Shown one piece after another: positions 218 to 62,158 of a stretch of DNA of 64,000 nucleotides; the first letter of the stretch is position 1; every line of letters starts with the position of its first letter. Position numbers and translations under genes: made by a program. Below the pieces are notes generated by a model, which saw nothing but the letters and a program-made list of their open reading frames with translations, ran no database searches and was not told where the DNA came from. Source of the stretch: a virus (taxonomy: Duplodnaviria > Heunggongvirae > Uroviricota > Caudoviricetes); IMG/VR virus record IMGVR_UViG_3300029544_000001; one strand, given 5' to 3'.

Positions 218-243
218 AGGGCTCACCCGATAATCATTGGGGG
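218..243. repeat. IS left terminal inverted repeat
   Basis: matches the reverse complement of 1612-1637 at about 21 of 26 positions. Confidence 0.65.
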
Positions 244-1226
244 TATGCATAAATCTTAGCCAGTCTAAAGAGGAAGAATTTCTCATCCACTACTCCTCTT
301 AATGCGGTTCTGAATTGTTTGATTTTCGCATTAAAGGATTCAGCCGCCGCATTAGAGGATCTTTTATTATAAAAGTTAAGAATATCATCATAATGTTCAT
401 AGAAGGTTGCTGCAATTACATTGAAAGCATGAAAGCCTGCCTCTTCCACTTTATTATACCATTTAGCCATACTCAATCTTGCCGCATCTTTGATTGTATT
501 TTTGGCAAGAATCATTCTGAGTGAATGACATAATCCATACGCCTGTCCCAATTCCGGATATTCCTTAAAAAGAATTTTGGCTCTTTGTTTTTGTGCTGGG
601 GTCCATTTTTCGGAGGATTTAAACAGCAGATAGCGGCTTCTTGCCAACAGTTCTTTCTTTGAATCTCCATTTTCATATCTCATAGGCACATATGATTCCC
701 CTTTCTGCTTTGCTTCTTCCATCTCATCATTGGCTTCCTGGATTGCGTCCCAGCGGAGTTTGATACGCATTTCCTGCACTGCATCGCAAGCTAATTTCTG
801 GATGTGGAACCGGTCTATTACACGAGATGCCTTGCGGAAACAGAAGCGGACTATTTTACGCATTGAGTCCGATAAATCAAGTGTCACTTCTTCTACACTG
901 TCCAACAGGTGTTCGGGAATATGGCGTAAAGCCGCTATGACCGTCTCTGACTTCGTCCCTGCAACAATGGCGACAAGGCACATCTCACGACCATGCCTGT
1001 CCCTGTTGGTTACTATTGTATAAAGGTCGCCATTCGACAGGGAAGTCTCGTCAATAGCCAGATTAGGTCCAATGTTCTCAGGAAAGACAAGCCACTCTTC
1101 CGCATGGCTCAACTCTTCCCAATTACGATAACCGCTTAGCACATCCTTGTATTGCTTCTCAAAGGTAGATGCGTCAATATGATAGAAATCATCAAGCGTA
1201 CGGCAGGTCACCGGGGATGTGTCCAT
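234..1226 (-). pseudogene. ISL3-family transposase, C-terminal DDE segment (orfB); frame-shifted relative to orfA at a T6A4 run, so either disrupted or needs a frameshift
   Basis: 330 aa; C-terminal ...NAAAESFNAKIKQFRTALRGV... is typical of ISL3 transposases; combined length ~440 aa matches an intact ISL3 transposase. Confidence 0.6.
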
Positions 1227-3258: not shown

Positions 3259-3975
3259 TCATTTTACAATCTCCCAATCTTCGGCAAACACATCACTGAT
3301 GGATGGAACCCACGAATCAGCACGACCAGTATTCTCGTTGTAAATAAGGCACTGGCTTGTATAGTCAATGAAACCCTTGCCTTTTAAAATAAGGTCTTTT
3401 GCCGATTGATGAAGTGACTGCATCTTCGGAACAATATCGCTTTCGATGTGTGCCGGGACTTGCTTGATGACCCACAACCCCTTTCCATTCCAACCTTTTC
3501 TACGAATAGCAAGACCAAATTTCAACGCTTCGATTGCAACTCCGAAAGACATCCGATTAAACGGAGCGTTAGGAGCACCGTCAAGACATCCAATACGACA
3601 TTCAAGTGTTTTCACGTAATTACCCATCACTACTTGCTGTAAACGTAACAAGAATTTTTGGTAGTTGTCTGTTACCACTTCATCCATCTTTCCAGAATCA
3701 ATGAAAGCAACAAGTTTATCCAACTTATCATACAAGTCTTTCATCTCAATGTGCAAACGATCAAGAAAGGTATCTGCATACTTGTAATATTTCTCAAACG
3801 GTTCGGCAGGCAACCAACTTCTGTAACCATCTTCACCTTTAACATAATAACCTTGCTCTGTTTCTTCATGGTTCTCAATGTCCTTACCATAGGGATTTCT
3901 ACCTGTTTTTTGAACGAAACTGCCCAATGTCATAGGTTCGGCTTCAATCTGTCTTGTTCCAATATACTTTTTCAT
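3259..3975 (-). CDS. phage protein with C-terminal DUF2829-like module (M.FG.A.EALK.G..IRRKGW...)
   Basis: 238 aa; C-terminal motif MSFGVAIEALKFGLAIRRKGWNGKGLWV recognised by eye. Confidence 0.4.
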   Translation of the reverse strand: MKKYIGTRQIEAEPMTLGSFVQKTGRNPYGKDIENHEETEQGYYVKGEDGYRSWLPAEPFEKYYKYADTFLDRLHIEMKDLYDKLDKLVAFIDSGKMDEVVTDNYQKFLLRLQQVVMGNYVKTLECRIGCLDGAPNAPFNRMSFGVAIEALKFGLAIRRKGWNGKGLWVIKQVPAHIESDIVPKMQSLHQSAKDLILKGKGFIDYTSQCLIYNENTGRADSWVPSISDVFAEDWEIVK

Positions 3976-5152: not shown

Positions 5153-5223
5153 AGGCCCATGCAGGAATCGAACCTGCGATCATGGTTTTGCAGACCATTG
5201 CCTTACCACTTGGCTAATGAACC
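5153..5223 (-). tRNA. tRNA-Cys (GCA)
   Basis: 71 nt; acceptor GGTTCAT/ATGGGCC (two GU pairs), anticodon loop CTGCAAA, T-arm GCAGGTTCGATTCCTGC. Confidence 0.85.
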
Positions 5224-5306
5224 AGATAGCTGGAAGTTTCACAACTTCACAGCTTCGCGGAAAGAAAAATAAGCTAATCCAATAACAATCTTTTTAACCT
5301 TAAATG

Positions 5307-5378
5307 CGCTCTTAGATGGATTTGAACCACCGACCTGATGATTAACAGTCATCTGCTCTACCACTAAGCTATAAGAGC
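5307..5378 (-). tRNA. tRNA-Asn (GTT)
   Basis: 72 nt; acceptor GCTCTTA/TAAGAGC, anticodon loop CTGTTAA, T-arm GGTGGTTCAAATCCATC. Confidence 0.85.
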
Positions 5379-5423
5379 AAATGATGTCTTTATCTCCCTA
5401 ACCGACCCATCCCCTTTCGGCGA

Positions 5424-5447
5424 TGGTGGAGGAATCGAACACTCCCA
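5424..5447 (-). other. tRNA-like fragment: T-arm-like hairpin GGGAGTGTTCGATTCCTCC followed by ACCA; no complete cloverleaf could be folded
   Basis: GGTTCGATTCC-type T-loop motif without recognisable D or anticodon arms. Confidence 0.3.
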
Positions 5448-5470
5448 TAAAGACATCTAACATACCGATT

Positions 5471-5920
5471 CTACCAACAGCTCGGTATCACACTCCCGGA
5501 CCAACGATTCCGGACAGGGCTTAGTTTACTTGTATATTGACTTGTCTCAACATAACCTGCATGTTCGTTCCCTTGTACTTCGGGCTTGTTGTACTCGGTA
5601 ATGGAGTCGAACCATTCTTTTCTGCTCGAAAGGCAGATGTCCTTTCCGATAGACGAACCGAGCAAACAGCCGGATTTTTCACCGGCTTTTGGCCAAAAAG
5701 TTTTAACTTTGCAGCCGTAATGGAAATTTATTTGCTGTTGCTTGTCCTCCTTGTACGGGAAATTCGCGCCCTCGTAAAGGAAATCAAAAGACGATAAGCC
5801 GTCCGTAGGACGTAAAAACAACAATTGAGCTTTCTTGCCATTTGGAATGTGAAATACGATCGGTTCACAGGCATTCAAGCATTTTACATAATTTCCATCC
5901 AGAGGAATAAAGGGGTGCAA
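5471..5920 (-). CDS. hypothetical protein (149 aa), uncertain
   Basis: ORF with non-repetitive composition between tRNA genes. Confidence 0.3.
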   Translation of the reverse strand: MHPFIPLDGNYVKCLNACEPIVFHIPNGKKAQLLFLRPTDGLSSFDFLYEGANFPYKEDKQQQINFHYGCKVKTFWPKAGEKSGCLLGSSIGKDICLSSRKEWFDSITEYNKPEVQGNEHAGYVETSQYTSKLSPVRNRWSGSVIPSCW

Positions 5921-6028
5921 AACATTTTTCCAAGATGTTTCTTAACAACCCATGCAGCCATCCCAGCGAAACCAAAGTTGGAAACTACATGGATCGCACC
6001 CCTCCTCTTTCCAATTTATTTATGAGTT

Positions 6029-6820
6029 TTAATTCGTCATCTTCAGAAATTCTGGAATTACCCCATACAGCGGTGTTTTTCCGTCCCATTTATCAATAAA
6101 CTGTTTATATAGAATTTCTTTAGTTAACCCTTTCGATGTGATAAGAGCCTGTTCGGTTTTTAATCTTTCCAGTTCGTTTTGCTTTTTCTGCTCTTCGATT
6201 TTCTGATCAATAACGGAAATATTAGTGTTAACCTCGTTTCTATTATCAATCTTTTCCCGGACTCGATCGCTAAATTCTAATTGGGCTGAAAATGACTTCA
6301 GGTCCAATCCTCTATCTTTAAATTCCGCCCTAACAATATCCTCCAGCTTCTTCTCAAAAGCTAAAGAACCCCCATCAGCCATAAGTGTATCTGTTTTATA
6401 TTTCCGGCTTTCTTCTTTAATAAGGTCGTAAATACGTGGTTCCAGAATATTGTCTTCCAAAGATCTCATAAATCCATCTCCGTTTCCGATATGTTTATTA
6501 TCAAAAACAACGTCAATTGCCTTGTCTTTGATAACTCTATATGAGTATAACGGAGTAGCATTGAACTCTGTATTGTCAGCAGCTTTTAGGGTAACTGATT
6601 TCTGAAATCCTCCACGCTGTTCAAACAATGGCACCTGAAACAACTCTGTTCCCCATTCCCATGTGGAAACTTTTCCGGATACAATCTTAAAATCTTCTTT
6701 ACCTTCCTTACCATAATTCTCCATAAGGACACCGGCATAGTTAGGAGCAACACGCTCACAAGATGAAAAAATCACTGTTGCCATAAGAGCAACCAACATA
6801 AACTTAATCTTCGTTTTCAT
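6029..6820 (-). CDS. lipoprotein (signal peptide + lipobox VIFSSC) with coiled-coil C-terminal half
   Basis: N-terminal MKTKIKFMLVALMATVIFSSC; 263 aa. Confidence 0.55.
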   Translation of the reverse strand: MKTKIKFMLVALMATVIFSSCERVAPNYAGVLMENYGKEGKEDFKIVSGKVSTWEWGTELFQVPLFEQRGGFQKSVTLKAADNTEFNATPLYSYRVIKDKAIDVVFDNKHIGNGDGFMRSLEDNILEPRIYDLIKEESRKYKTDTLMADGGSLAFEKKLEDIVRAEFKDRGLDLKSFSAQLEFSDRVREKIDNRNEVNTNISVIDQKIEEQKKQNELERLKTEQALITSKGLTKEILYKQFIDKWDGKTPLYGVIPEFLKMTN

Positions 6821-7025
6821 GTTTTTTGATAATTAATTTAATGATGTTAATAACTGGATAGCAAACCCCAAAACATATAGCAATTCCCAACCAAGCGTCA
6901 ACATGATTGAATACTCTATTGCCTATGAATAAGACCGCTATCATAAAAAAGAATTGTTCTATATACTTTTTCATCGCATATTAAGTTTGGTATATTTCAA
7001 AGAACTCTTATTGACTTATGTCATT

Positions 7026-7111
7026 GTGCCGCAAACAGGAGTCGAACCTGCATTATCCATTCGGACAAATGGATTTTAAGTCCATCGTGTCTACCAATTC
7101 CACCATTGCGG
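7026..7111 (-). tRNA. tRNA-Leu (TAA), long variable arm
   Basis: 86 nt; acceptor GCCGCAA/TTGCGGC, anticodon loop CTTAAAA, T-arm GCAGGTTCGACTCCTGT. Confidence 0.85.
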
Positions 7112-7362
7112 CATCATCTTATCAAGCCTTAAAGAACAAAGAAAAAATCCGGATAAAGAATGAGTTTCGGGTTTTCATCTTCTCCAACTCTTTATTGTCT
7201 TTTCTCAATTTCTTAATGTCTGCTTTATTGGAAGACACGTGTGTTTTAGCTCTCGTATTCAACTCCACTAAGGACTGAACCAATTGTCTCAAATTGGCAA
7301 TAATATTTGCCCTTTCAGATATGATTTGCTCTTTCATACTATAATTAATTTAATTAGTTAGT

Positions 7363-7435
7363 GGCGGAGAGCCGGACTCGAACCGGCGACCTCTTGGTTA
7401 TGAGCCAAGCGAGCTACCAACTGCTCCATCCCGCT
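7363..7435 (-). tRNA. tRNA-Met (CAT) with defective acceptor stem (5' AGCGGGA versus 3' TCTCCGC); possible pseudogene or 1-nt indel
   Basis: D-arm, anticodon arm (CTTGG-CTCATAA-CCAAG) and T-arm (GCCGG-TTCGAGT-CCGGC) are canonical; only 4 of 7 acceptor pairs form; restoring GCGGAGA would give 7 of 7. Confidence 0.6.
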
Positions 7436-27649: not shown

Positions 27650-28918
27650 TTACAATATTGCCACTAAAGTATTGTACGCTGCTCTTCTGGTCAAAATAGC
27701 ATTCTGCATACAACCTATTGTCAAATAACCTTCAATTTCTTTACTCTTAGATTTATTTCGATTAGCCTTTACGTTCCGACCAATACCTCTAACAACACAA
27801 CCATCCGGCTTATCCTTAACATAGCCAAGGCCACCAACTTTATGTTTCCCAGTTTCAACGGCTCTAAGGCAATCCATTACGAATTTATTCAATTCATTAA
27901 TATCAACCCGAACATTACATACTGGAAGGGTCTGAGTCGCCCAACTATATTCTCCATTGCCTTTATATAAATATCGGTTAACCGAATCCACAGCCTTCTT
28001 CAACGTAATACCACGTTTTCTGATGGTTCTTGATTCTATTTCTTTCTGGAAGGTTTTAAGACGATTGGGAGAGAAAGAAATCATACTTCCCTTAATGCTG
28101 AAACCTAGAAATTTGAACCACTTGTCCATAGTCAGGTACTCTACTTTCTTGGGATTCAAATTCATTGATTTTTCGGCCAATCTCTTTTGTAAAATGGTCA
28201 TAGCCTTTTCATAGTCCGGACCAACGAACAACATATCATCCGAATACCTTACGTAAAACCCATTCAATTGGGACAGTTCATCATCCAAGCTATATAGCAA
28301 CACGTTGGCTAACCAGCTTGCTACTGCGCATCCTTGTTTAAGTGATTGATATTTCTCATGCAGTTCGTTGTTCTCATCGAAATACAATCCGCAATGATAG
28401 TATTTTCTTAATACATCAATTAACACAGAGTGACCATACTTAGCTTCCACCTTATCAAAAGCTGCGTCAATAAACCGGATAGGAACAGTGTCGAAATATT
28501 TACTTAAATCAGATTTCCAGCCCACATAACCATCACTTTTCATGTCAACAATTGTGTGACTTACTTCCAGAACCACTTTACCGCAACCAATACCGACCTG
28601 ATAAGATTTACAAGCAGGATGAATCATCTCTGGCATTAAATCAAATAGCAAATCATTCGCGATGCTTAGGATTATACGATCAATAGGTTCGTTGACATAT
28701 ACAGTACGAAACTCTCCGTTATCCTTCGGAATTTGTGCAATATGTGGTGGTGTTATTTGATATTTACCATTCAACATAGCTTCTGCCATACGAATTCTGG
28801 TTGGTTCTTCTGTCAGTTTGATAAGTTCGCTCTTCCGAATATCCTTCAGAACGCCTTTCTCAATTGCTTTTGTCCATCTATTAATGTCGAAGAACATTGT
28901 AAGAATCTTATCTTTCAT
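27650..28918 (-). CDS. reverse transcriptase (RT domains 1-7; class unresolved)
   Basis: IPKDNGEFRTVYVNEPIDRII, DLSKYFDTV, QGCAVASWLANVLL, YVRYSDDMLFVG, NPKKVEYL, FLGFSI. Confidence 0.75.
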   Translation of the reverse strand: MKDKILTMFFDINRWTKAIEKGVLKDIRKSELIKLTEEPTRIRMAEAMLNGKYQITPPHIAQIPKDNGEFRTVYVNEPIDRIILSIANDLLFDLMPEMIHPACKSYQVGIGCGKVVLEVSHTIVDMKSDGYVGWKSDLSKYFDTVPIRFIDAAFDKVEAKYGHSVLIDVLRKYYHCGLYFDENNELHEKYQSLKQGCAVASWLANVLLYSLDDELSQLNGFYVRYSDDMLFVGPDYEKAMTILQKRLAEKSMNLNPKKVEYLTMDKWFKFLGFSIKGSMISFSPNRLKTFQKEIESRTIRKRGITLKKAVDSVNRYLYKGNGEYSWATQTLPVCNVRVDINELNKFVMDCLRAVETGKHKVGGLGYVKDKPDGCVVRGIGRNVKANRNKSKSKEIEGYLTIGCMQNAILTRRAAYNTLVAIL

Positions 28919-43730: not shown

Positions 43731-44318
43731 TTAGAGACGGATAGAATCGAATATAGAATTTATTTCATCTTCTCTAATACAGATGTATATTTTAGTTATT
43801 TCAATGTTAGAGTGATTGAATATCCTGTTCAATAGTAACAATGCTTCTGACTTGTTTTCGCTTGTATCATAAACATATCGTCCAAATGTTTTTCTAAAAG
43901 TATGCGTAGAAAAATTCTCTATATCCAATTTATATTTAGCCTTCCATTCTTTCATTATCCGATTAAGATATTGGGAAGAGATAGATACTCCTGTAAATTT
44001 GCTTTTAAATATTAATTCATTCGGATTAGGGCGTTTAAGCAATATATAAAGTTCCTCTATTCTCGTTTGAATACTTAAATTAAATGGGATTTTTCGTACC
44101 TTTCCAGTTTTCTTCTCAATTTTAGTCAATGAACCTTTATGGAGAATATCAGCCCATGCTAAAGACAATACATCTGATACTCGTAGTGCAGTGCAGAATG
44201 CCAGTCGAGCATATAGTTCCCATAAATATTGCCGATCCTTATGAAGAAGGCGTAGTAATTTCTTATATTCTTCCATAGGAAGATAATCACTTTTGGTTAA
44301 CTGATTTTTCTTTGCCAT
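43731..44318 (-). CDS. tyrosine-type site-specific recombinase, catalytic domain only (no N-terminal core-binding domain)
   Basis: ALRVSDVLSL (Arg I), HTFRKTFGRYVY (His-x-x-Arg), ITKIYI (catalytic Tyr); only 195 aa. Confidence 0.6.
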   Translation of the reverse strand: MAKKNQLTKSDYLPMEEYKKLLRLLHKDRQYLWELYARLAFCTALRVSDVLSLAWADILHKGSLTKIEKKTGKVRKIPFNLSIQTRIEELYILLKRPNPNELIFKSKFTGVSISSQYLNRIMKEWKAKYKLDIENFSTHTFRKTFGRYVYDTSENKSEALLLLNRIFNHSNIEITKIYICIREDEINSIFDSIRL

Positions 44319-56051: not shown

Positions 56052-56513
56052 ATGGCAATAATTAACAATGTAGCATACAGCTGGTCTATGATCCGCATTT
56101 CCATACCAGCATTGGATATTTCAGAAGATTCTACTATTATGCAAGGAGTTTCTGAAATCAAGTGGAACAAGACTCGTAAAGTTGAAAACAACTACGGTAT
56201 TGGAGGAAATGCTATCAATCGTGGTTTTGGCAATAAAACCTGTACAGCCTCCATTACAATGGATTATAATACCGTTTCCCAACTCCGAGCATTGGCTGGT
56301 TCTTTAATGGATTTGGGAGAATTTGACTTGATCATCTCATTTACTAATGCTTATGCCGGTGAAGACTGGACCGCCGAAACTGTAACGCTAAAGGGATGCC
56401 TCTTTAACGAAGACGGAATGGAAAGTAAACAAGATGATACAAACATTACAAAAGAATTCAATTTGAATCCTTTCGACATTATCACAGGAGAAGGAACTAG
56501 TTCTTGGCTATAA
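56052..56513 (+). CDS. putative tail tube protein
   Basis: 153 aa directly after the sheath candidate. Confidence 0.4.
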   Translation: MAIINNVAYSWSMIRISIPALDISEDSTIMQGVSEIKWNKTRKVENNYGIGGNAINRGFGNKTCTASITMDYNTVSQLRALAGSLMDLGEFDLIISFTNAYAGEDWTAETVTLKGCLFNEDGMESKQDDTNITKEFNLNPFDIITGEGTSSWL

Positions 56514-56583
56514 CTTCTAGTATAATACGTTTTTGAAAAGGCGAGTTGAAAACGGCTCGCTTTTCATTTTATCTATAAAATAA

Positions 56584-56612
56584 AAAGGGATGCGTTAACA
56601 CATCCCTTTATT
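56584..56612. terminator. bidirectional intrinsic terminator AGGGATG-loop-CATCCCT flanked by A5 and TTTATT; a weaker hairpin at 56541-56564 precedes it
   Basis: 7-bp stem with U-runs on both strands; separates the + tube gene from the - Abi gene. Confidence 0.6.
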
Positions 56613-56681
56613 ATCCGTTTTATAGTGCAGAATTGACGACTAAGCTCAAATATGCACTTTTTACGTTGCAAAAATAATGTT

Positions 56682-57572
56682 TTATTTCCAATCTACAAAA
56701 TTCAGTAAGTGTATTTTTGAGCAATCCTTAATTATTTGGTTTGTTTTACCACTTCTTTTTATGTTTACCAGATGATTTATGTCTTGTTCAAGCTCTTTTT
56801 GCCTATTTATTGATATTTTACCAAGTATATAATCAATAACACCAATAATGCCACTAACATATTGCCGGGATTGATTATCGACATTTGCTGGATGTACCTT
56901 TACGCCCAATGGCAATGTGATATTATACAAACAACTACCATGTGCACATTTGTTTCTGATAAACATGATTGTTTCAAGATAATTCTTGAATATTCCTATT
57001 GTACAACCGTATTTGTTTGCTATCTGTAATTGAACATCTTTATCTCGCAAACTTTTGTACAACATGCAAACATTGCCGATTGTCATAAATTCCAACGTTT
57101 TCCATGCAGGTGCATATCGGTCATTTATGTGAGTTTTATGATGACGCAGAATAACCGGATTCTTAGAAATCTGTGCATACACCATATCGTCAAATGTATT
57201 GATAAAAGATGAAAGCATAATTGCAGGATCTACAAACCATGTAGGAGAATTTTTATAATGGTTTGATATAATATATGTGATAGTTGTGCGGATATTGACT
57301 TCTATTCTATTTAATGCGTTCAATAGAACCCTTCTCAAATCATAATCGAAATAATACAAATCCACAATTTCCTTAAAAGAAGTGCCTTTACACAGTTTAT
57401 GGTTGCGATTCCTTAGACTGGGAAAAGTTTTTTCAAACGGAAAAGAATAGAATCCCAATCTATAATACCCCACATCTAGTAAAATCTCCTTTGCCTTCTC
57501 TTCATCCTCAAAGACCATACCATGTTCTTTGAGTTTATTTATCTGTTCTTCTATATTCAATGCGTGTTTCAT
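56682..57572 (-). CDS. Abi_2-family abortive infection protein (AbiD/AbiF-like) inserted antisense in the tail module
   Basis: N-terminal MKHALNIEEQINKLKEHGMVFEDEEKAKEILLDVGYYRLGFYSFPFE matches the conserved Abi_2 start (..EQI..LK..G....DE.KA...L..I.YYRLS.Y); 296 aa. Confidence 0.7.
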   Translation of the reverse strand: MKHALNIEEQINKLKEHGMVFEDEEKAKEILLDVGYYRLGFYSFPFEKTFPSLRNRNHKLCKGTSFKEIVDLYYFDYDLRRVLLNALNRIEVNIRTTITYIISNHYKNSPTWFVDPAIMLSSFINTFDDMVYAQISKNPVILRHHKTHINDRYAPAWKTLEFMTIGNVCMLYKSLRDKDVQLQIANKYGCTIGIFKNYLETIMFIRNKCAHGSCLYNITLPLGVKVHPANVDNQSRQYVSGIIGVIDYILGKISINRQKELEQDINHLVNIKRSGKTNQIIKDCSKIHLLNFVDWK

Positions 57573-57799
57573 ATAACAAAATATCTCATAAAAATAATAA
57601 AAGCCACTTATGAGTGGCTCATTTCCTTACAAGAAAGTAAGGCGTTGCTTTTTATATGTTGTAAAGGTAATAGATTTTATTTTATATACCAAATAAAATA
57701 ATACAGAGAATATACATTTAACATTTTATTTGCATTCACACACAACCTACCAACATTATAATTACTATTCTTGGATAAACATCAATAATCATAATTATA

Positions 57800-58186
57800 A
57801 TGGAAAATGTAAACGAAGACCTTTTCTTGCCTGAAGATATTCAGACCGAGATTGAAAAGAAAGTAAAAGAGCTGAAAGATTCAGATCCCAAACTAAAACG
57901 TGTATTCCCGATTTTTGTGGAAGGAGATGAAGACGAAGGCGAAAAGCCATATTATATCGGTTATTTTAAACAGCCGCCTTTCCCGACATTCAGTAAATAT
58001 TTGTCCCTCTCCCAAAAGGACCAGGCCGGTGCCATGCGAGAATTGGCAAAAGATTGCTTTGTCGATGGCGATAAAGAACTGATTAAAGATGATTCCTTAT
58101 TCATCTATGGCTTGATGCCACATCTGGCTCAAATCATCGAGTTGCGCAAAGGAAAACTCGTAAATTTATCAAAAGCTGGGAAGTAA
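57800..58186 (+). CDS. tail assembly chaperone (gpG-like)
   Basis: 128 aa between the tube and tape measure genes. Confidence 0.45.
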   Translation: MENVNEDLFLPEDIQTEIEKKVKELKDSDPKLKRVFPIFVEGDEDEGEKPYYIGYFKQPPFPTFSKYLSLSQKDQAGAMRELAKDCFVDGDKELIKDDSLFIYGLMPHLAQIIELRKGKLVNLSKAGK

Positions 58187-58359
58187 AAGACGATCAACTT
58201 ATTCGTCATAGACTGATATTTATCCGTCATTATTTTCCCAGCGTAAACCTTGATGAGTTAAACGATGAAGAATTTGCAATGCTTTCTGAAGATGCCGTAT
58301 GGCTCCACAGCAAAATGCTCATAACTCAACAAGCAAGTGCACTTGGAATGCTTGCGTAA
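58169..58359 (+). other. -1 frameshift extension (gpGT-like): slippery A_AAA_G at 58171-58175, -1 frame open to 58359
   Basis: -1 frame reads IKSWEVKDDQLIRHRLIFIRHYFPSVNLDELNDEEFAMLSEDAVWLHSKMLITQQASALGMLA then stop. Confidence 0.4.
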
Positions 58360-58388
58360 AGTGTCTTATTACTCGTTTTTTCTACGTA

Positions 58389-58422
58389 GCCCTTTATCCT
58401 CTGTCGGATAAGGGGCTTTTTC
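58389..58422 (+). terminator. intrinsic terminator or attenuator between the chaperone and tape measure genes
   Basis: GCCCTTTATCC-tctgtcg-GGATAAGGGGC+T5, one mismatch in the stem. Confidence 0.45.
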
Positions 58423-58474
58423 AATCTTTCAGGGTACCAAACCGCTATTCTTTAGAAAATCAAAATACAAAAAG

Positions 58475-61400
58475 ATGGCAGAAAATTATATTGTTAATTA
58501 TCAGATAAACGTTAACTCTAATCCAGCTTTAGAGTCTATACGTAAATTTCAGCAGGCCACAGCTGAAATGGAAGCATTAACAAAGCGATTTGATGTTGTT
58601 GCAAAAAGCATCGGTAAGGTTAATTCAGCATTGGCTTCTATTAAAACTAAGCCTATCAATATACAGATTAACACAAGCGCGGCAGAAGCTAGTTTAGAAC
58701 GTGTTTTAAAGCAACTAAGCAATATTAAATCACAGGCTAAGACTGCATTAGGTAAACCTTTATATTCAACTTCGGATATAAAGAAATTGGATCAAGCTAT
58801 TAGTTCTATAAATGGTAAAACGATCAATCCAAAGGCTAATACAGAAAGAGCAATAAGTAGTCTTGATAAGTTAATACAGAAAATAGAACAGATTAAGTCG
58901 AATAGTAAAATAACCATTACAGCCAGTGCCGCTGGCGCATCTAAGGGGGTATCTGGTAGTACAACTAGAAATACGACTTCCACTTCAACACGACAGACTG
59001 GAGCAGGACGAAGTACTTATCTGTATCCATCTACTCGGCAAGTATTAGGTCCAACATACGCCAACACAGGTACAAATGTTGCAGGCGAAATGATTAAGGG
59101 TATGGGAATTGCCTATGGGCTTAGCTCTTTAATGTCTGGGGTAACTTCTGTATTTAGAGATGCTTCTACCTATGATAATATAGCCAAAACGACAAAAAAT
59201 ATCCTCCAAACTCACGATAAAGGTGTAGGGTTTGAAGGTCGGTTTAATGAAATGAACCAACTCATGCGCCAAGTCGGTGTTGAGACTAAATATACAGCCC
59301 CACAAGTTGCATCAGCTGGAAAATTCTTAGCTATGGCAGGATTTAATGTCGATCAAATAAAACATGCCATCCGGCCTATATCAGATATTGCACTTGTAGG
59401 TGATACAGACTTGGGAGAAACAGCGGATGTTGTAACAAACATTATGACCGCTTATGAAATCCCAGCAAAACAAATGGATAACACAGCAGACATTCTTACG
59501 ATGACGTTCACAAAAACGAATACAACATTGTTAGAATTAGCTGAATCATTTAAATATGCCGGTACTGTCGCCCATCAATCAGGGTTAGATTTTGAAACTG
59601 CTTCGGCAGCTTTTGGTGTATTAGGCGATGCCGGTATCAAAGGTTCTCACGCAGGTACTACGTTACGTATGATGCTATTAAATATGATGAACCCTACTAA
59701 AAGAGGTCAAGAAGCATGGGACATATTAGGCATCAACACAAAAGATAAAAACGGAAATCTTCGGAATCTCTCAGACATTTTAAGTGATTTACATGAAAAA
59801 CAGCAAACCATGAGTGCTGGTGATTTCTCAACACTAATCAACAAGATGTTTCGGGTAACAGCGGCTCCAGGTGCACTAGCATTAATAAATAATGTAGCAA
59901 AAATGCAAGAAGTAACCGGACTCAATAAAAAGTCAATGGGGCTTGCATCCGACCTTGCCGACGAAAAGAAAAACACCATACAGGGTCTTTGGTATCAGAT
60001 GACCTCAGCATTTACAGAAACTGGAATGCAAGGGTTTGAACAAATGCAAGGAGTAATCCGAGACTTCCTGCAACGCATGATTGAGTTAATGAAATCCACA
60101 GAATTTGCAACTGCATTGAGAAATGCAATGGACATGTTCATTAAACTATTAAATGTTGTAGTCAGTGTTTTTAAACAAATAATGACTTTTTGGAATCTTT
60201 TGCCCAATTGGGCAAAAGATGGTATTGTATGGTTTGTAAAAATTCAAATGACATTAGGGGTTATTGCTGGCATTGGACAAAGTATATTAAGTACATGGAT
60301 AATGATTCGAGGTGTAATGATGGGTTCATGGCTGTCTACTATTATATCCAAATTCACTTTTTTATTCAGAACAATTCACAATGGATACAAATACTTTTTA
60401 CTATCGCGAGCCTTGGGTAATGGTGTTGGCTCTTCTGTAATTAATGCTATAGGCACGAGGACCACCAGTGCTATTGTTGCCACAGGAGTTACAGCAAATG
60501 CCAATGGATTTACAGCATTAAGTGCAGCATCTGGGTTATTAAGAGGATTATTTACTACTCCAATAGGTTGGATGATAGGAGCCGTTACTGTCTTAGGAAC
60601 ATTGGTTTATAAAATATATCAAGCACATAAAGCTACAGAGGCTGCTCGTCAAGCCAATGAAGCATGGGCACAAAGCTATCGTAATTTGAATATTGACAAG
60701 TTAAATCTATCCGATCCAGATGCCTTAATGATTGGAAATATGCGTATTTTCAATAATGAATTGTTAACCCAAAACGAGCGTATCGCCCAGTCTACCGAAT
60801 TATGGCATCGTTACTGGATAGAAAAGAATGGTCCCAAACAAAGTGTAGACGACCAAACCAAATTCTTTGACACAGCCGCAGGTAGAGACCCGGAATTACT
60901 AAAACGATTAGAAGCCGCAGACCAATGGACAGGTGTAGATAAAGCCTTCCAGTCATTATCCGGCGCACTGGGAATGAAACAGACTGTCAAAAAAGGTCTG
61001 AACGGTGAAAATTATTATGCGTATGAGTTACATGGCCGTACTTTAAGTGGAACGAATACAAATGTTTTTGCAAGAAACGGAGATATAAGCGAACAAGTGG
61101 CCGTCCAAATGATGCTGGCCCAATTAGCAGACCATAATTCTAAAGAGAATATGGCTTTGAGCAAATATCTTTTGCATAACGCTGTGTCTGCTAATAGTTC
61201 AGAAGATTTATCAAGAATATTAGACAATGCAGCAGAGCGTTTTATACCTAAGATGAATAGTTGGGATTCTCGATGGGACTGGATTAGCACAGAAACATTC
61301 CATGACGAGATGACTGAAGGTGATGTGCATCGTTCACAAGCATATATCCGGCACCTTATGCAAATTATGCAGAAAACAATAAATACATGGAATGATTTTG

Positions 61401-62158
61401 CTTCTGTGTTAAAAGATGCCGATGCAGGAAAGACTATTGATCCAATGAAGATCCAAACTGTATTGCAAAACCGTTTCGGACTTTTGTTTGATACTAAAGC
61501 TGGTCTATTTGGAACTGAAGGATGGTTGAAGTATGTACAGGATATATACAATAACCCCTCTAAATTTGGATTACCTGAAAAATCTAATGTTAAAGAAATT
61601 TCCGGTCATATCACAAAAACATTTGATGATATTTTAGCCTTTTACAATGAACTTGATGTTAAATACAAACCACTTTTCGCCCCATTTATAAATAGATCTT
61701 CTTTCCAAAATATACTTAAAAATGGGTACGAACTTCCTACGGGCGGTTTTTATGGTCCACAGAAAGAAGGTGATAAAGCGATTTTTGACGGGGCACAGTA
61801 TATAGCTAAAACAATAGCTCCATACGCTACTCCACAGTGGGTAGATAAAAGTGGGAAAATATATACCCCTAAAAATGCTAAAGATACATTTAAGTGGGAC
61901 CCTACGGCTGGTAACAAAGAGCAAGATTTAGCCTCCAGCCTTCATAACGGAGCCGACCAGTCTCAATATAGGAGTCATAATAATTATAATGCAGCTCCTA
62001 AACAATTAATAGTACGAATAGAAAATCTAATGCGCGTGGATCATCAAACAATTGATATGACAGATGATAGACAAGTTGCGGCAATAACAAACGTAAAACA
62101 AGAATTAGCAACCGCCTTGTTAGATGTAGTTCAAGATTTTAATGCAAATATGATGTAA
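58475..62158 (+). CDS. tail tape measure protein
   Basis: 1227 aa; conserved TMP core (GVETKYTAPQVASAGKFLAMAGF ... TADVVTNIMTAYEI); helical with hydrophobic segments. Confidence 0.8.
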   Translation: MAENYIVNYQINVNSNPALESIRKFQQATAEMEALTKRFDVVAKSIGKVNSALASIKTKPINIQINTSAAEASLERVLKQLSNIKSQAKTALGKPLYSTSDIKKLDQAISSINGKTINPKANTERAISSLDKLIQKIEQIKSNSKITITASAAGASKGVSGSTTRNTTSTSTRQTGAGRSTYLYPSTRQVLGPTYANTGTNVAGEMIKGMGIAYGLSSLMSGVTSVFRDASTYDNIAKTTKNILQTHDKGVGFEGRFNEMNQLMRQVGVETKYTAPQVASAGKFLAMAGFNVDQIKHAIRPISDIALVGDTDLGETADVVTNIMTAYEIPAKQMDNTADILTMTFTKTNTTLLELAESFKYAGTVAHQSGLDFETASAAFGVLGDAGIKGSHAGTTLRMMLLNMMNPTKRGQEAWDILGINTKDKNGNLRNLSDILSDLHEKQQTMSAGDFSTLINKMFRVTAAPGALALINNVAKMQEVTGLNKKSMGLASDLADEKKNTIQGLWYQMTSAFTETGMQGFEQMQGVIRDFLQRMIELMKSTEFATALRNAMDMFIKLLNVVVSVFKQIMTFWNLLPNWAKDGIVWFVKIQMTLGVIAGIGQSILSTWIMIRGVMMGSWLSTIISKFTFLFRTIHNGYKYFLLSRALGNGVGSSVINAIGTRTTSAIVATGVTANANGFTALSAASGLLRGLFTTPIGWMIGAVTVLGTLVYKIYQAHKATEAARQANEAWAQSYRNLNIDKLNLSDPDALMIGNMRIFNNELLTQNERIAQSTELWHRYWIEKNGPKQSVDDQTKFFDTAAGRDPELLKRLEAADQWTGVDKAFQSLSGALGMKQTVKKGLNGENYYAYELHGRTLSGTNTNVFARNGDISEQVAVQMMLAQLADHNSKENMALSKYLLHNAVSANSSEDLSRILDNAAERFIPKMNSWDSRWDWISTETFHDEMTEGDVHRSQAYIRHLMQIMQKTINTWNDFASVLKDADAGKTIDPMKIQTVLQNRFGLLFDTKAGLFGTEGWLKYVQDIYNNPSKFGLPEKSNVKEISGHITKTFDDILAFYNELDVKYKPLFAPFINRSSFQNILKNGYELPTGGFYGPQKEGDKAIFDGAQYIAKTIAPYATPQWVDKSGKIYTPKNAKDTFKWDPTAGNKEQDLASSLHNGADQSQYRSHNNYNAAPKQLIVRIENLMRVDHQTIDMTDDRQVAAITNVKQELATALLDVVQDFNANMM

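What the first reader, a model, noticed from the sequence alone, without database searches (positions are those of the whole stretch)
56541..57800. Antisense Abi_2-family abortive-infection gene inserted as a moron between the tail tube and tail chaperone genes
The only minus-strand gene within the 15.6 kb of plus-strand structural genes. Its N-terminus matches the conserved Abi_2 (AbiD/AbiF-like) start motif. It is bracketed by a bidirectional terminator (56584-56612) and its own AT-rich promoter region (57573-57799). A defence gene carried by the phage itself argues that this is a temperate phage that protects its lysogen.
Basis: partly seen in the sequence, partly recalled or inferred. Interest (0 to 1): 0.7.

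Follow-up and report, generated by a model that had tools for sequence, protein, structure and literature searches.

The report
Phage Abi toxin with partner RNA
A gut Bacteroidales phage carries, in a swap-prone slot between two tail genes, an AbiF-like RNA-cutting defence/toxin gene together with a conserved small RNA gene that was absent from the RNA-family library and papers I could search and is probably the toxin's antidote.

Summary
Window 56682-57572 (-) encodes a 296-aa Abi_2/AbiD-F protein (Pfam 1.7e-43; PADLOC AbiD 2.4e-53). It has an invariant HEPN RNKCAH motif and the full fold of PbAbiF (8vz6, TM 0.81). It is cargo: the tube-chaperone junction is a hotspot that is empty in some relatives and holds AbiE, AbiL, SIR2, Panacea TA and other genes in others.

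This gene has its own Bacteroidota -7 promoter box. The RNA accompanies about 56 of 60 loci of this Abi subfamily, in phages and bacterial chromosomes. Its inner stem shows strong compensatory covariation. It matches no Rfam family and is mutually exclusive with the canonical abiF RNA (RF03085), which sits upstream of 20/20 PbAbiF-type genes. In a distant clade the same RNA lies upstream of the gene.

Eight near-identical phages have deleted the Abi ORF between 7-bp repeats but kept the RNA. Most likely this is an AbiF-like type III toxin-antitoxin/abortive-infection module with a new RNA partner. A temperate lifestyle is plausible but not shown.

The parts
56052..56513 (+). Tail tube-like gene; left edge of the cargo hotspot
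   Evidence: phrog_4579 tail protein 7e-06. It follows the sheath (DUF2586/phrog_907). It is 100% identical in loci that carry three different junction alleles.
56537..56564 (+). Intrinsic terminator after the tube gene
   Evidence: 12-bp stem followed by a T-run, plus strand.
56519..57691 (.). Variable cargo segment of the tube-chaperone hotspot in this phage
   Evidence: Alleles diverge a few bases after the tube stop codon and re-converge at about 57692. GC is 0.316 against 0.375 in the flanks.
56575..56664 (-). Small RNA gene: 58-nt conserved core (56664-56608), which is a hairpin plus a single-stranded AUAAAACGGA tail, followed by an intrinsic terminator (56609-56584) and a U-run
   Evidence: Covariance model R1 gives a single hit in the window at 68.2 bits, E = 6.9e-14. 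The transcript folds as modelled with z = -4.84. Covariation: 51 double-change cells against 13.4 +/- 3.6 in shuffles, 0/500; 73 against 18 on 36 distinct sequences. RNAalifold gives the same fold. No Rfam match.
56669..56676 (-). Bacteroidota -7 promoter box TATTTTTG for the small RNA
   Evidence: Perfect TAnnTTTG box ending 4 nt before the model start. All 28 distinct downstream-type RNA genes have such a box 4-13 nt upstream.
56682..57572 (-). Abi_2 / AbiD-F family HEPN protein, 296 aa (predicted RNase toxin)
   Evidence: PF07751 1.7e-43. PADLOC AbiD 2.4e-53. 8vz6 PbAbiF 1.5e-25 by sequence and TM 0.81 by fold. 28% identical to PbAbiF and 26% to AbiFCd.
56940..56957 (-). Codons of the HEPN catalytic motif R206-N-K-C-A-H211
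   Evidence: R206, N207, C209 and A210 are invariant, and H211 is invariant or nearly so, across the subfamily. The motif aligns with PbAbiF RNSCCH (R210/H215) and AbiFCd RNQCAH (R202/H207), which are required for toxicity in those proteins.
56695..56701 (.). Left copy of the 7-bp direct repeat ACAAAAT, an endpoint of the natural Abi deletion
   Evidence: The 406-bp allele equals 56514-56701 joined to 57576-57799.
57576..57582 (.). Right copy of the 7-bp direct repeat ACAAAAT
   Evidence: Same as above. The deletion removes 881 bp (56702-57582). It is seen in L003, L004, L005, L007, L012, L014, L015 and L017.
57577..57584 (-). Degenerate -7-like box ATATTTTG, 5 nt before the Abi start codon
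   Evidence: At the same position the 86% homologue has the canonical TACATTTG. The 77%, 72% and 67% homologues have TACTTTTG or TATTTTTG.
57587..57642 (-). Two tandem hairpins plus a U-run (terminator-like) upstream of the Abi gene; clade-specific and of unexplained role
   Evidence: Terminator scan and fold. Absent from the 86%, 77%, 72% and 67% homologues. Retained in the deletion alleles. No R1 or Rfam hit.
57692..57799 (+). Block shared by all junction alleles, upstream of the chaperone gene; probable promoter/leader of the downstream tail genes
   Evidence: About 76% identical in the unrelated 290-bp allele. The last 35 bp are identical.
57800..58186 (+). DUF6848 gene in the tail-chaperone position; right edge of the hotspot
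   Evidence: PF20941 4.1e-06. It is followed by the tape measure gene 58475-62158 (PF10145 2.4e-47).

Best explanation
The feature is a compact two-gene cassette (about 56575-57584, minus strand) carried as exchangeable cargo in a hotspot between the tail tube and tail chaperone genes of a large Bacteroidales (probably Prevotellaceae) myovirus.

Gene 1 encodes an AbiF-like HEPN protein. Gene 2, immediately downstream on the same strand, has its own promoter box and terminator and encodes a structured RNA of about 90 nt.

By analogy with the characterised AbiF systems (PbAbiF/AbiFr, AbiFCd/RCd22), the protein is a dimeric RNase toxin whose active site (R206/H211) is kept blocked by the cognate RNA. 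When a competing phage perturbs host transcription or RNA stability, the RNA is lost and the RNase is freed. The cell then stops growing and the infection aborts. The same logic would also stabilise the carrier element.

Shown here: family membership and fold of the protein, the conserved catalytic motif, the reality and structure of the RNA, its strict association with this protein subfamily, and the cargo/hotspot nature of the site.

Inferred: RNase activity, RNA-protein binding, the antitoxin role, the trigger, and expression from a lysogen.
For: Protein: PF07751 149.5 bits, PADLOC AbiD, an invariant RNxCAH motif, and a confident model (pLDDT 87.9) whose only PDB match is 'PbAbiF dimer bound to ncRNA' at TM 0.81 over the full length.

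RNA: a single 68-bit hit in the window. All six inner-helix pairs carry compensatory changes, exceeding shuffled and slid controls. RNAalifold independently gives the same fold. Promoter boxes are present in 28/28 distinct genes, with strong terminators.

Association: R1 hits flank the Abi gene on the same strand in 52 of 58 viral/metagenomic loci. There are two more weak hits with filters off, and 4 of 4 additional bacterial loci chosen blind. There is no hit in about 1.8 Mb of other sequence except at this hotspot.

Position independence: the RNA is downstream in most clades and upstream, in a promoter-RNA-terminator-ATG layout, in a distant clade.

Mutual exclusivity with RF03085: 20/20 PbAbiF-type loci have RF03085 and none has R1. 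The window and its subfamily have R1 and no RF03085 even at E <= 10.

TA-like asymmetry: 8 phages lost the toxin ORF but kept the RNA at 100% identity, and 3 more keep an orphan RNA next to other cargo. No hotspot allele has the toxin without the RNA.

Cargo status.

Literature: AbiD/F proteins are two-component protein+ncRNA type III TA systems (PMC12373285, PMC13064643, PMC12737573).
Against: Nothing here is experimental. Toxicity, RNase activity, RNA binding and anti-phage activity are all inferred by homology at 26-28% identity.

The RNA shares no detectable sequence or model similarity with the known AbiF RNA, so its antitoxin role is an analogy.

Two subfamily loci (L262, L264) gave no RNA hit, and two gave only weak ones.

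In the window's clade the Abi-proximal promoter box is degenerate and is preceded by a terminator-like hairpin of unknown function, so expression level is uncertain.

The Abi ORF has been deleted in most of the closest relatives (8 deletion versus 3 intact among the loci held), so it is dispensable and perhaps costly.

I could not read the primary PbAbiF paper, so the RNA may already have been described there.
Confidence: 0.7

Rival explanations
1. Single-gene Abi moron. The protein acts alone. The conserved downstream element is only a 3'-UTR/terminator-associated stabiliser, or an unrelated sRNA that hitch-hikes with the cassette.
For: The element lies between the stop codon and the terminator (17-96 nt after the stop), where 3'-UTR elements occur. 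It has no similarity to the known AbiF antitoxin RNA.
Against: Every distinct copy has its own TAnnTTTG promoter box at a fixed distance (28/28). In a distant clade the same RNA, with its own promoter and terminator, lies upstream of the gene, which a 3'-UTR element would not do. It survives intact at 100% identity after the ORF is deleted. The protein has the full fold of an RNA-bound AbiF, and the literature reports that AbiD/F members need an RNA partner.
Confidence: 0.12
2. The cassette is primarily an addiction (post-segregational killing) module that stabilises the phage genome in its host, for example as an episomal prophage, rather than an anti-phage defence.
For: Type III TA logic works equally for maintenance. 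The only recombinase in the window is a short Xer-like catalytic domain. BS-TP1, the syntenic cultured relative, has no chromosomal homologues according to PMC12694917, which is compatible with a non-integrating lifestyle. Other cargo at the same site includes classical TA pairs (AbiE, Panacea).
Against: The same hotspot also holds non-TA defence genes (SIR2/PDC-S65, AbiL, PDC-S01). The module also occurs as a lone island in bacterial chromosomes among housekeeping genes, where no element needs to be stabilised. More distant relatives of the phage are clearly integrated in Mb-scale contigs. The two roles are not exclusive.
Confidence: 0.2
3. The gene is a decaying, non-functional passenger.
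For: It has been deleted in 8 of the 11 closest loci that retain the RNA. Its proximal promoter box is degenerate in this clade.
Against: The ORF is intact and full length, all catalytic and core residues are conserved, and the model is confident. The 98%-identity cluster has 200 member sequences in public assemblies. Copies at 96-100% identity exist in several independent contigs.
Confidence: 0.05

Closest known systems
PbAbiF-AbiFr (Prevotellaceae AbiF type III toxin-antitoxin; PDB 8vz6; Zilberzwige-Tal et al., Cell 2025, as described in PMC12373285 and PMC12737573)
   Same: Same Pfam family. Same full-length fold (TM 0.81). The HEPN R-N-x-x-x-H motif aligns. Similar size (296 versus 300 aa). 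Bacteroidales setting. A dedicated, cis-encoded structured small RNA sits next to the gene.
   Different: Only 28% identical. PbAbiF-type genes carry the RF03085 abiF motif ending about 18 nt before the ATG in 20/20 loci. This gene and its subfamily have none. Instead they have a different RNA family (R1), usually downstream with its own promoter and terminator, and R1 is absent from all 79 PbAbiF/phiC2 loci.
AbiFCd-RCd22 of C. difficile prophage phi027 / phages phiC2 and CD2301 (PMC12373285)
   Same: A phage-borne Abi_2 HEPN toxin with an RNA partner, inserted as a moron inside a late gene module. It is 26% identical over the full length, with RNQCAH against RNKCAH here. The upstream-RNA clade of the present subfamily has the same promoter-RNA-terminator-ORF layout.
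   Different: There the module lies between holin and endolysin on the same strand as its neighbours. Its RNA has two RF03085 motifs and is co-transcribed with the toxin by read-through. Here the module is antisense, sits between tube and chaperone, and has one unrelated hairpin RNA downstream.
Lactococcal AbiD / AbiD1 / AbiF / AbiD-like (AbiD/F group; PMC13064643)
   Same: The best PADLOC model is AbiD. All are HEPN proteins. The review states they are protein+upstream-ncRNA two-component systems that are toxic without their native upstream region.
   Different: Those are plasmid-borne in Firmicutes and the RNA is upstream. No sequence-level relation of the RNAs was found.
Type III TA systems ToxIN / AbiQ
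   Same: The general logic of an RNase toxin neutralised by a cis-encoded structured RNA, acting in abortive infection (my knowledge).
   Different: The toxin folds are unrelated (not HEPN). Their antitoxins are tandem repeats processed by the toxin. Here there is a single hairpin RNA.
Prophage defence hotspots, such as the P2/P4 hotspots of E. coli (from my own knowledge; not tested here)
   Same: A fixed position between conserved phage genes whose content varies between close relatives and is enriched in defence and TA systems.
   Different: A different phage lineage (Bacteroidales, Mu-type portal, contractile tail) and a different position (tube/chaperone junction). I did not check the literature for a prior description of this particular hotspot.

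Membership tests
Pfam Abi_2 (PF07751) / AbiD-F group | Profile match above the curated threshold over the whole domain | tested here: met
   149.5 bits against a cut-off of 25.6, profile positions 1-184/184. PADLOC AbiD 179.6 bits. phrog_2158.
Pfam Abi_2 (PF07751) / AbiD-F group | HEPN catalytic motif R-[NHD]-x-x-x-H at the position equivalent to PbAbiF R210/H215 | tested here: met
   RNKCAH at residues 206-211. It aligns to RNSCCH of 8vz6 and is conserved across the subfamily.
Pfam Abi_2 (PF07751) / AbiD-F group | Full-length AbiF fold | tested here: met
   AF2 model with pLDDT 87.9. Foldseek gives 8vz6_A at TM 0.81/0.81 and E = 1.9e-11, the only significant PDB hit.
Pfam Abi_2 (PF07751) / AbiD-F group | Homodimer with a composite active site; RNase activity; toxicity | not testable with these tools
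   Requires multimer modelling or biochemistry.
Canonical AbiF type III TA (AbiF + abiF RNA, Rfam RF03085) | RF03085 motif immediately upstream of the gene | tested here: not met
   No RF03085 hit at E <= 10 in 56400-58500 or 57560-57810, nor in 13 loci of the subfamily. Positive controls: phiC2 at 37.6 bits and 20/20 PbAbiF-type loci at 41.6-58.5 bits.
Canonical AbiF type III TA (AbiF + abiF RNA, Rfam RF03085) | A conserved, structured, cis-encoded small RNA stably associated with the gene | tested here: met
   Met, but by a different RNA family (model R1).
Canonical AbiF type III TA (AbiF + abiF RNA, Rfam RF03085) | The RNA binds and neutralises the toxin | not testable with these tools
   Only indirect evidence: the toxin ORF is lost while the RNA is kept in 8 + 3 loci, and never the reverse at the hotspot.
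Phage moron / hotspot cargo | Presence/absence polymorphism between close relatives with conserved flanks | tested here: met
   Loci with a 100% identical tube gene carry alleles of about 290 bp, about 406 bp or about 1290 bp. Gaps range from 114 to 5147 bp across 80 viral loci and from 115 to 4872 bp in 47 genome loci. BS-TP1 has an empty site.
Phage moron / hotspot cargo | Own transcription signals and deviant composition | tested here: met
   Minus-strand terminator and a canonical -7 box for the RNA. There is only a degenerate box for the Abi ORF in this clade, although it is canonical in the 86-67% homologues. GC is 0.319 against 0.375.
Temperate phage | Integrase or other lysogeny module; found integrated in host genomes | tested here: inconclusive
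   There is a 195-aa Xer-like tyrosine recombinase catalytic domain only. Relatives with 61-82% capsid identity are in genomes of cultured Bacteroidales, several within 0.3-3.9 Mb contigs. This phage itself was not found integrated, and no repressor was identified.
Any Rfam 15 RNA family (for the small RNA) | Match at gathering score | tested here: not met
   Only tRNAs reach gathering score in the window. At E <= 10 only noise hits overlap 56575-56666, with best scores of 21-25 bits against cut-offs of 52-85.

The most novel reading that the evidence does not exclude
The downstream RNA (model R1) defines a second, previously uncatalogued class of AbiF-type antitoxin RNA. A whole Bacteroidales subfamily of Abi_2 HEPN toxins (at least 1,200 homologues at E <= 1e-10) would then be type III TA systems that use a partner RNA unrelated to RF03085. 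That RNA is transcribed from its own promoter, and its position relative to the toxin gene, upstream or downstream, has been permuted during evolution. Its invariant single-stranded UAAAA tail, rather than an internal bulge, would be the candidate active-site plug. Since AbiF/AbiFr is the proposed ancestor of Cas13/crRNA, a second protein-RNA lineage would bear on how RNA partners are exchanged in that ancestry.
Probability: 0.5. Interest if true: 0.72.

Novelty: new variant of a known kind. Interest (0 to 1): 0.62.

Why it matters
AbiF-type HEPN toxins and their RNAs have recently been proposed as the evolutionary source of Cas13 and its crRNA. So far one RNA motif (RF03085) stands for the whole family in Rfam.

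Here a large Bacteroidales branch of the family proves to have a different partner RNA, supported by covariation, with its own promoter and a variable position relative to the toxin gene. This gives a directly testable second example of toxin-RNA pairing.

The tube-chaperone junction of a widespread lineage of gut Bacteroidales phages and prophages is also shown to be a defence/TA cargo hotspot. It can be mined for new systems, and it explains strain-level differences in phage susceptibility in the gut.

In practical terms, annotation pipelines that call this locus a single 'Abi family protein' miss half of the module.

Tried and rejected
(1) The upstream hairpins (57642-57587) as an AbiFr/RCd22-like antitoxin in the canonical upstream position. 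This was my first hypothesis. I rejected it because the block is absent from the 86%, 77%, 72% and 67% homologues, which have only a -7 box before the ATG. It also gets no RF03085 or R1 hit, and its fold z-score is unremarkable (-1.88). Its role remains unexplained.

(2) RF03085 in the window or the subfamily: absent, with positive controls working.

(3) The sigma-70 promoter scan is not informative (11 found versus 12.1 expected). The host uses Bacteroidota-type promoters.

(4) Close DNA relatives in GenBank phages: none. The best Abi protein matches there are below 30% identity.

(5) Integrase search among the large ORFs: only a short Xer-like domain. Lifestyle is left open.

(6) DGR template/variable repeats near the reverse transcriptase: none found in 20-34 kb.

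(7) Reading the primary PbAbiF paper: not held, and no PMC id was found in reference lists.

It was redone with A4.

(9) A second R-[NHD]-xxx-H string (RHHKTH, residues 143-148) was considered as a second HEPN motif. H148 is not among the conserved columns, so I do not count it.
Full report
OBSERVATION

The window has minus-strand genes up to about 48.2 kb and a plus-strand morphogenesis block from 48424 to the end. That block runs Mu-type portal, MuF-like protein, protease, capsid, sheath, tube, chaperone-position gene, tape measure and DUF6046 protein.

Inside that block the only credible minus-strand gene is the 296-aa ORF at 56682-57572. It matches Pfam Abi_2 over the entire profile (149.5 bits), PADLOC AbiD (2.4e-53) and phrog_2158, 'abortive infection resistance protein'. 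GC is 0.32 in the cassette against 0.374/0.376 in the flanking structural genes.

THE PROTEIN

The only solved relative by sequence is 8vz6 (E = 1.5e-25). According to PMC12373285 and PMC12737573, 8vz6 is PbAbiF, a Prevotellaceae AbiF homodimer bound to two copies of its ncRNA antitoxin.

Identity is 28% to PbAbiF and 26% to the C. difficile phage AbiF. The HEPN motif RNKCAH (residues 206-211) aligns with the residues whose mutation abolishes toxicity in both characterised proteins. It is conserved across the subfamily.

An AlphaFold2 model (pLDDT 87.9, pTM 0.84) has a single significant PDB match, 'PbAbiF dimer bound to ncRNA', at TM 0.81 over the full length. Membership of the Abi_2/AbiD-F family is therefore secure. 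Enzymatic activity is inferred.

CARGO IN A HOTSPOT

IMG/VR holds 217 contigs encoding relatives of the tube protein. Among the 80 loci kept, the distance from the tube stop codon to the chaperone start ranges from 114 bp to 5147 bp.

Loci with a 100% identical tube gene carry three alleles:
- About 290 bp of unrelated spacer, seen in six loci.
- About 1290 bp with the Abi gene (L001, L010, L016).
- About 406 bp, seen in eight loci.

The 406-bp allele is the Abi allele with 881 bp (56702-57582) removed between two ACAAAAT repeats.

Other alleles carry the following cargo, mostly on the minus strand:
- AbiLi+AbiLii
- AbiEi+AbiEii with a metallophosphoesterase
- a SIR2 protein (PDC-S65)
- PDC-S01 with a DUF4209 protein
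- a SocA/Panacea antitoxin pair
- UmuC/UmuD-like genes
- thioredoxin+Dam
- signal-peptide proteins of unknown family

The same junction is equally variable in relatives found inside genomes of cultured Bacteroidales, including Alistipes, Bacteroides, Phocaeicola and Butyricimonas. It is empty (142 bp) in the cultured, syntenic Bacteroides phage BS-TP1.

Homologues of the Abi gene at 86% and 77% identity occupy this same junction in other relatives. Homologues at 72-54% identity sit as lone islands in bacterial chromosomes. The 'moron' reading is thus confirmed and generalised: the site is a cargo/defence hotspot.

LOOKING FOR THE RNA PARTNER

The literature describes AbiD/F proteins as two-component systems with an upstream ncRNA carrying the Rfam abiF motif RF03085.

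A terminator-like hairpin 30 nt upstream of the Abi start (57620-57601) first suggested such an RNA. That did not hold:
- RF03085 is not detected in the window even at E <= 10.
- The hairpin block is missing from the 86-67% homologues, which have only a canonical Bacteroidota -7 box (TAnnTTTG) before the ATG.

The Rfam model itself works. It finds phiC2 and 20 of 20 PbAbiF-type loci at 42-58 bits.

THE DOWNSTREAM RNA GENE

A BLAST of the variable segment against all loci showed that the 77 nt between the Abi stop codon and the minus-strand terminator are conserved in every homologue. A 58-nt piece of it also follows the unrelated Panacea cargo.

Inspection of twelve loci showed a common architecture:
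- the stop codon;
- a TAnnTTTG box;
- about 10 nt later, a hairpin with an invariant outer stem AGUGC/GCACU;
- an inner stem whose sequence changes but whose pairing is kept;
- an invariant single-stranded UAAAA stretch;
- a strong intrinsic terminator.

The evidence that this is a real structured RNA is as follows.
- On a MAFFT alignment of 23 distinct sequences, all six inner-stem pairs have double compensatory changes. There are 51 such cells against 13.4 +/- 3.6 in shuffles (0/500). The covariation score is 0.455 against 0.05-0.11 for slid partners, and 88% of cells are paired against 18-48%.
- RNAalifold predicts the same fold without being told.
- A covariance model (R1) gives one hit in the window, 56664-56608 minus strand, at 68.2 bits and E = 6.9e-14. 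The next best is 12.9 bits.
- The 90-nt transcript folds exactly as modelled, with z = -4.84.

ASSOCIATION AND SPECIFICITY

Among 58 loci of the subfamily, 39 have strong hits (43-69 bits), always downstream and on the same strand.

Thirteen have weaker hits (20-26 bits). Ten of these lie upstream of the ORF in a promoter-RNA-terminator-ATG layout, which is the canonical AbiF arrangement. Two more loci have marginal downstream hits and two have none.

All 28 distinct downstream genes have a promoter box 4-13 nt before the model start, and the loci with enough sequence have a terminator.

Four further homologues from long bacterial contigs, chosen before their flanks were seen, all have the RNA 37-40 nt after the stop codon. 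On 36 distinct sequences the covariation holds (73 double-change cells against 18 +/- 4.9).

R1 finds nothing in 79 PbAbiF/phiC2 loci (238 kb) or in 47 Bacteroidales genome loci (735 kb). In 80 hotspot loci (797 kb) it hits only the three Abi alleles, the eight deletion alleles (at full score) and the three Panacea alleles (51.9 bits).

The two RNA families therefore partition exactly with the two protein subfamilies.

MECHANISM

The best-supported reading is an AbiF-like type III toxin-antitoxin/abortive-infection module. A dimeric HEPN RNase is held inactive by a cognate small RNA that is transcribed separately and probably in excess. The RNase is released when an infecting phage disturbs transcription or RNA stability.

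The asymmetry seen in nature fits this reading: the toxin ORF is lost and the RNA kept in 8 + 3 loci, and never the reverse at this hotspot.

The antisense orientation, the plus-strand terminator after the tube gene (56537-56564) and the conserved block before the chaperone gene (57692-57799) suggest that the cassette is insulated from late transcription. They also suggest that late transcription, when it reads through, would oppose Abi expression during the phage's own lytic growth. This last point is inference only.

A maintenance (addiction) role is an alternative that does not exclude the first.

LIFESTYLE AND HOST

The absence of Shine-Dalgarno sequences, the TAnnTTTG boxes and the taxonomy of relatives point to Bacteroidales. 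The closest capsid match in a cultured isolate genome is Segatella copri at 82%; an 'Eubacteriales' MAG contig scores 86%.

The window encodes a 195-aa Xer-like recombinase domain next to an NAD-ligase, syntenic with BS-TP1's annotated 'integrase'. More distant relatives are integrated in chromosomes.

Whether this phage integrates, persists as an episome or is virulent is not settled.

NOVELTY AND LIMITS

The gene alone is an ordinary new member of a well-known family. Abi_2 genes in prophages are documented.

Two things are new with respect to Rfam 15 and the literature I could search: the partner RNA family with its variable placement, and the definition of this hotspot.

I could not read the primary PbAbiF paper, which may treat ncRNA diversity, so the novelty claim is provisional. 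All functional statements are inferred from homology and comparative genomics.

Noticed in passing
window 57587-57642 (-): Two tandem hairpins followed by a U-run, terminator-like on the Abi strand, lie only 15-70 nt upstream of the Abi start. They are specific to this clade, retained in the Abi-deletion alleles and absent from the 86-67% homologues. Their function is unknown; they may be an insulator, an attenuator or a relic of earlier cargo.
   Followed up: partly
L028-L030, about 6807-6862 (-): An apparently full-length copy of the Abi-associated RNA (51.9 bits) sits next to a SocA/Panacea antitoxin + 150-aa gene pair, with no Abi gene and no obvious -7 box. It is probably a footprint of cargo replacement.
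   Followed up: partly
window 57692-57799 (+), and the equivalent in L002, L018, L025, L035: All junction alleles share the last ~35-108 bp before the chaperone start. A TTAACATnTTAAAT-like motif lies about 80 nt upstream. This may be a late promoter that restarts tail-gene transcription after the cargo.
   Followed up: no
L105-L108 and L141 (genome loci): An identical 3300-bp cargo (three minus-strand ORFs of 327, 260 and 254 aa, not run against family libraries; they resemble the genes flanking the SIR2 protein in the L079 allele), with identical coordinates, occurs in prophages of Phocaeicola coprophilus, three Bacteroides species and an Alistipes chromosome. This implies very recent spread of one prophage across genera.
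   Followed up: no
window 27650-28918 (-): A reverse transcriptase (RVT_1 3.6e-20; best NCBIfam resemblance is group II intron RT, below cut-off). The relative BS-TP1 is reported to carry a DGR, but no template/variable repeat pair was found in 20-34 kb.
   Followed up: partly
window 3259-3975 (-): A protein with a Tad2-like (Thoeris anti-defence 2) domain and a crAss001_48-related domain. The phage thus carries a candidate counter-defence gene as well as a defence gene.
   Followed up: no
window 234-1226 (-): An ISL3-family transposase (4e-49) at the start of the window: an IS element inside or next to the phage genome.
   Followed up: no
window 43731-44318 (-): A 195-aa tyrosine recombinase consisting of the catalytic domain only (PF00589 2e-21; Xer-like), next to an NAD-dependent ligase and a dUTPase. 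It is syntenic with the 'integrase' of BS-TP1. It could be a dimer-resolution enzyme rather than an integrase.
   Followed up: partly
window 5153-7434 (-): A cluster of five tRNA genes among small minus-strand ORFs.
   Followed up: no
window 58388-58417 (+): A strong terminator-like hairpin (12-bp stem) in the 289-bp gap between the chaperone-position gene and the tape measure gene. This is an unusual place for a terminator, and no frameshift-extended chaperone ORF was examined.
   Followed up: no
L148 5098-5580: In the phage carrying the 86% Abi homologue, an extra 160-aa gene lies between the Abi+RNA cassette and the tube gene, so cargo can be stacked at the hotspot.
   Followed up: no
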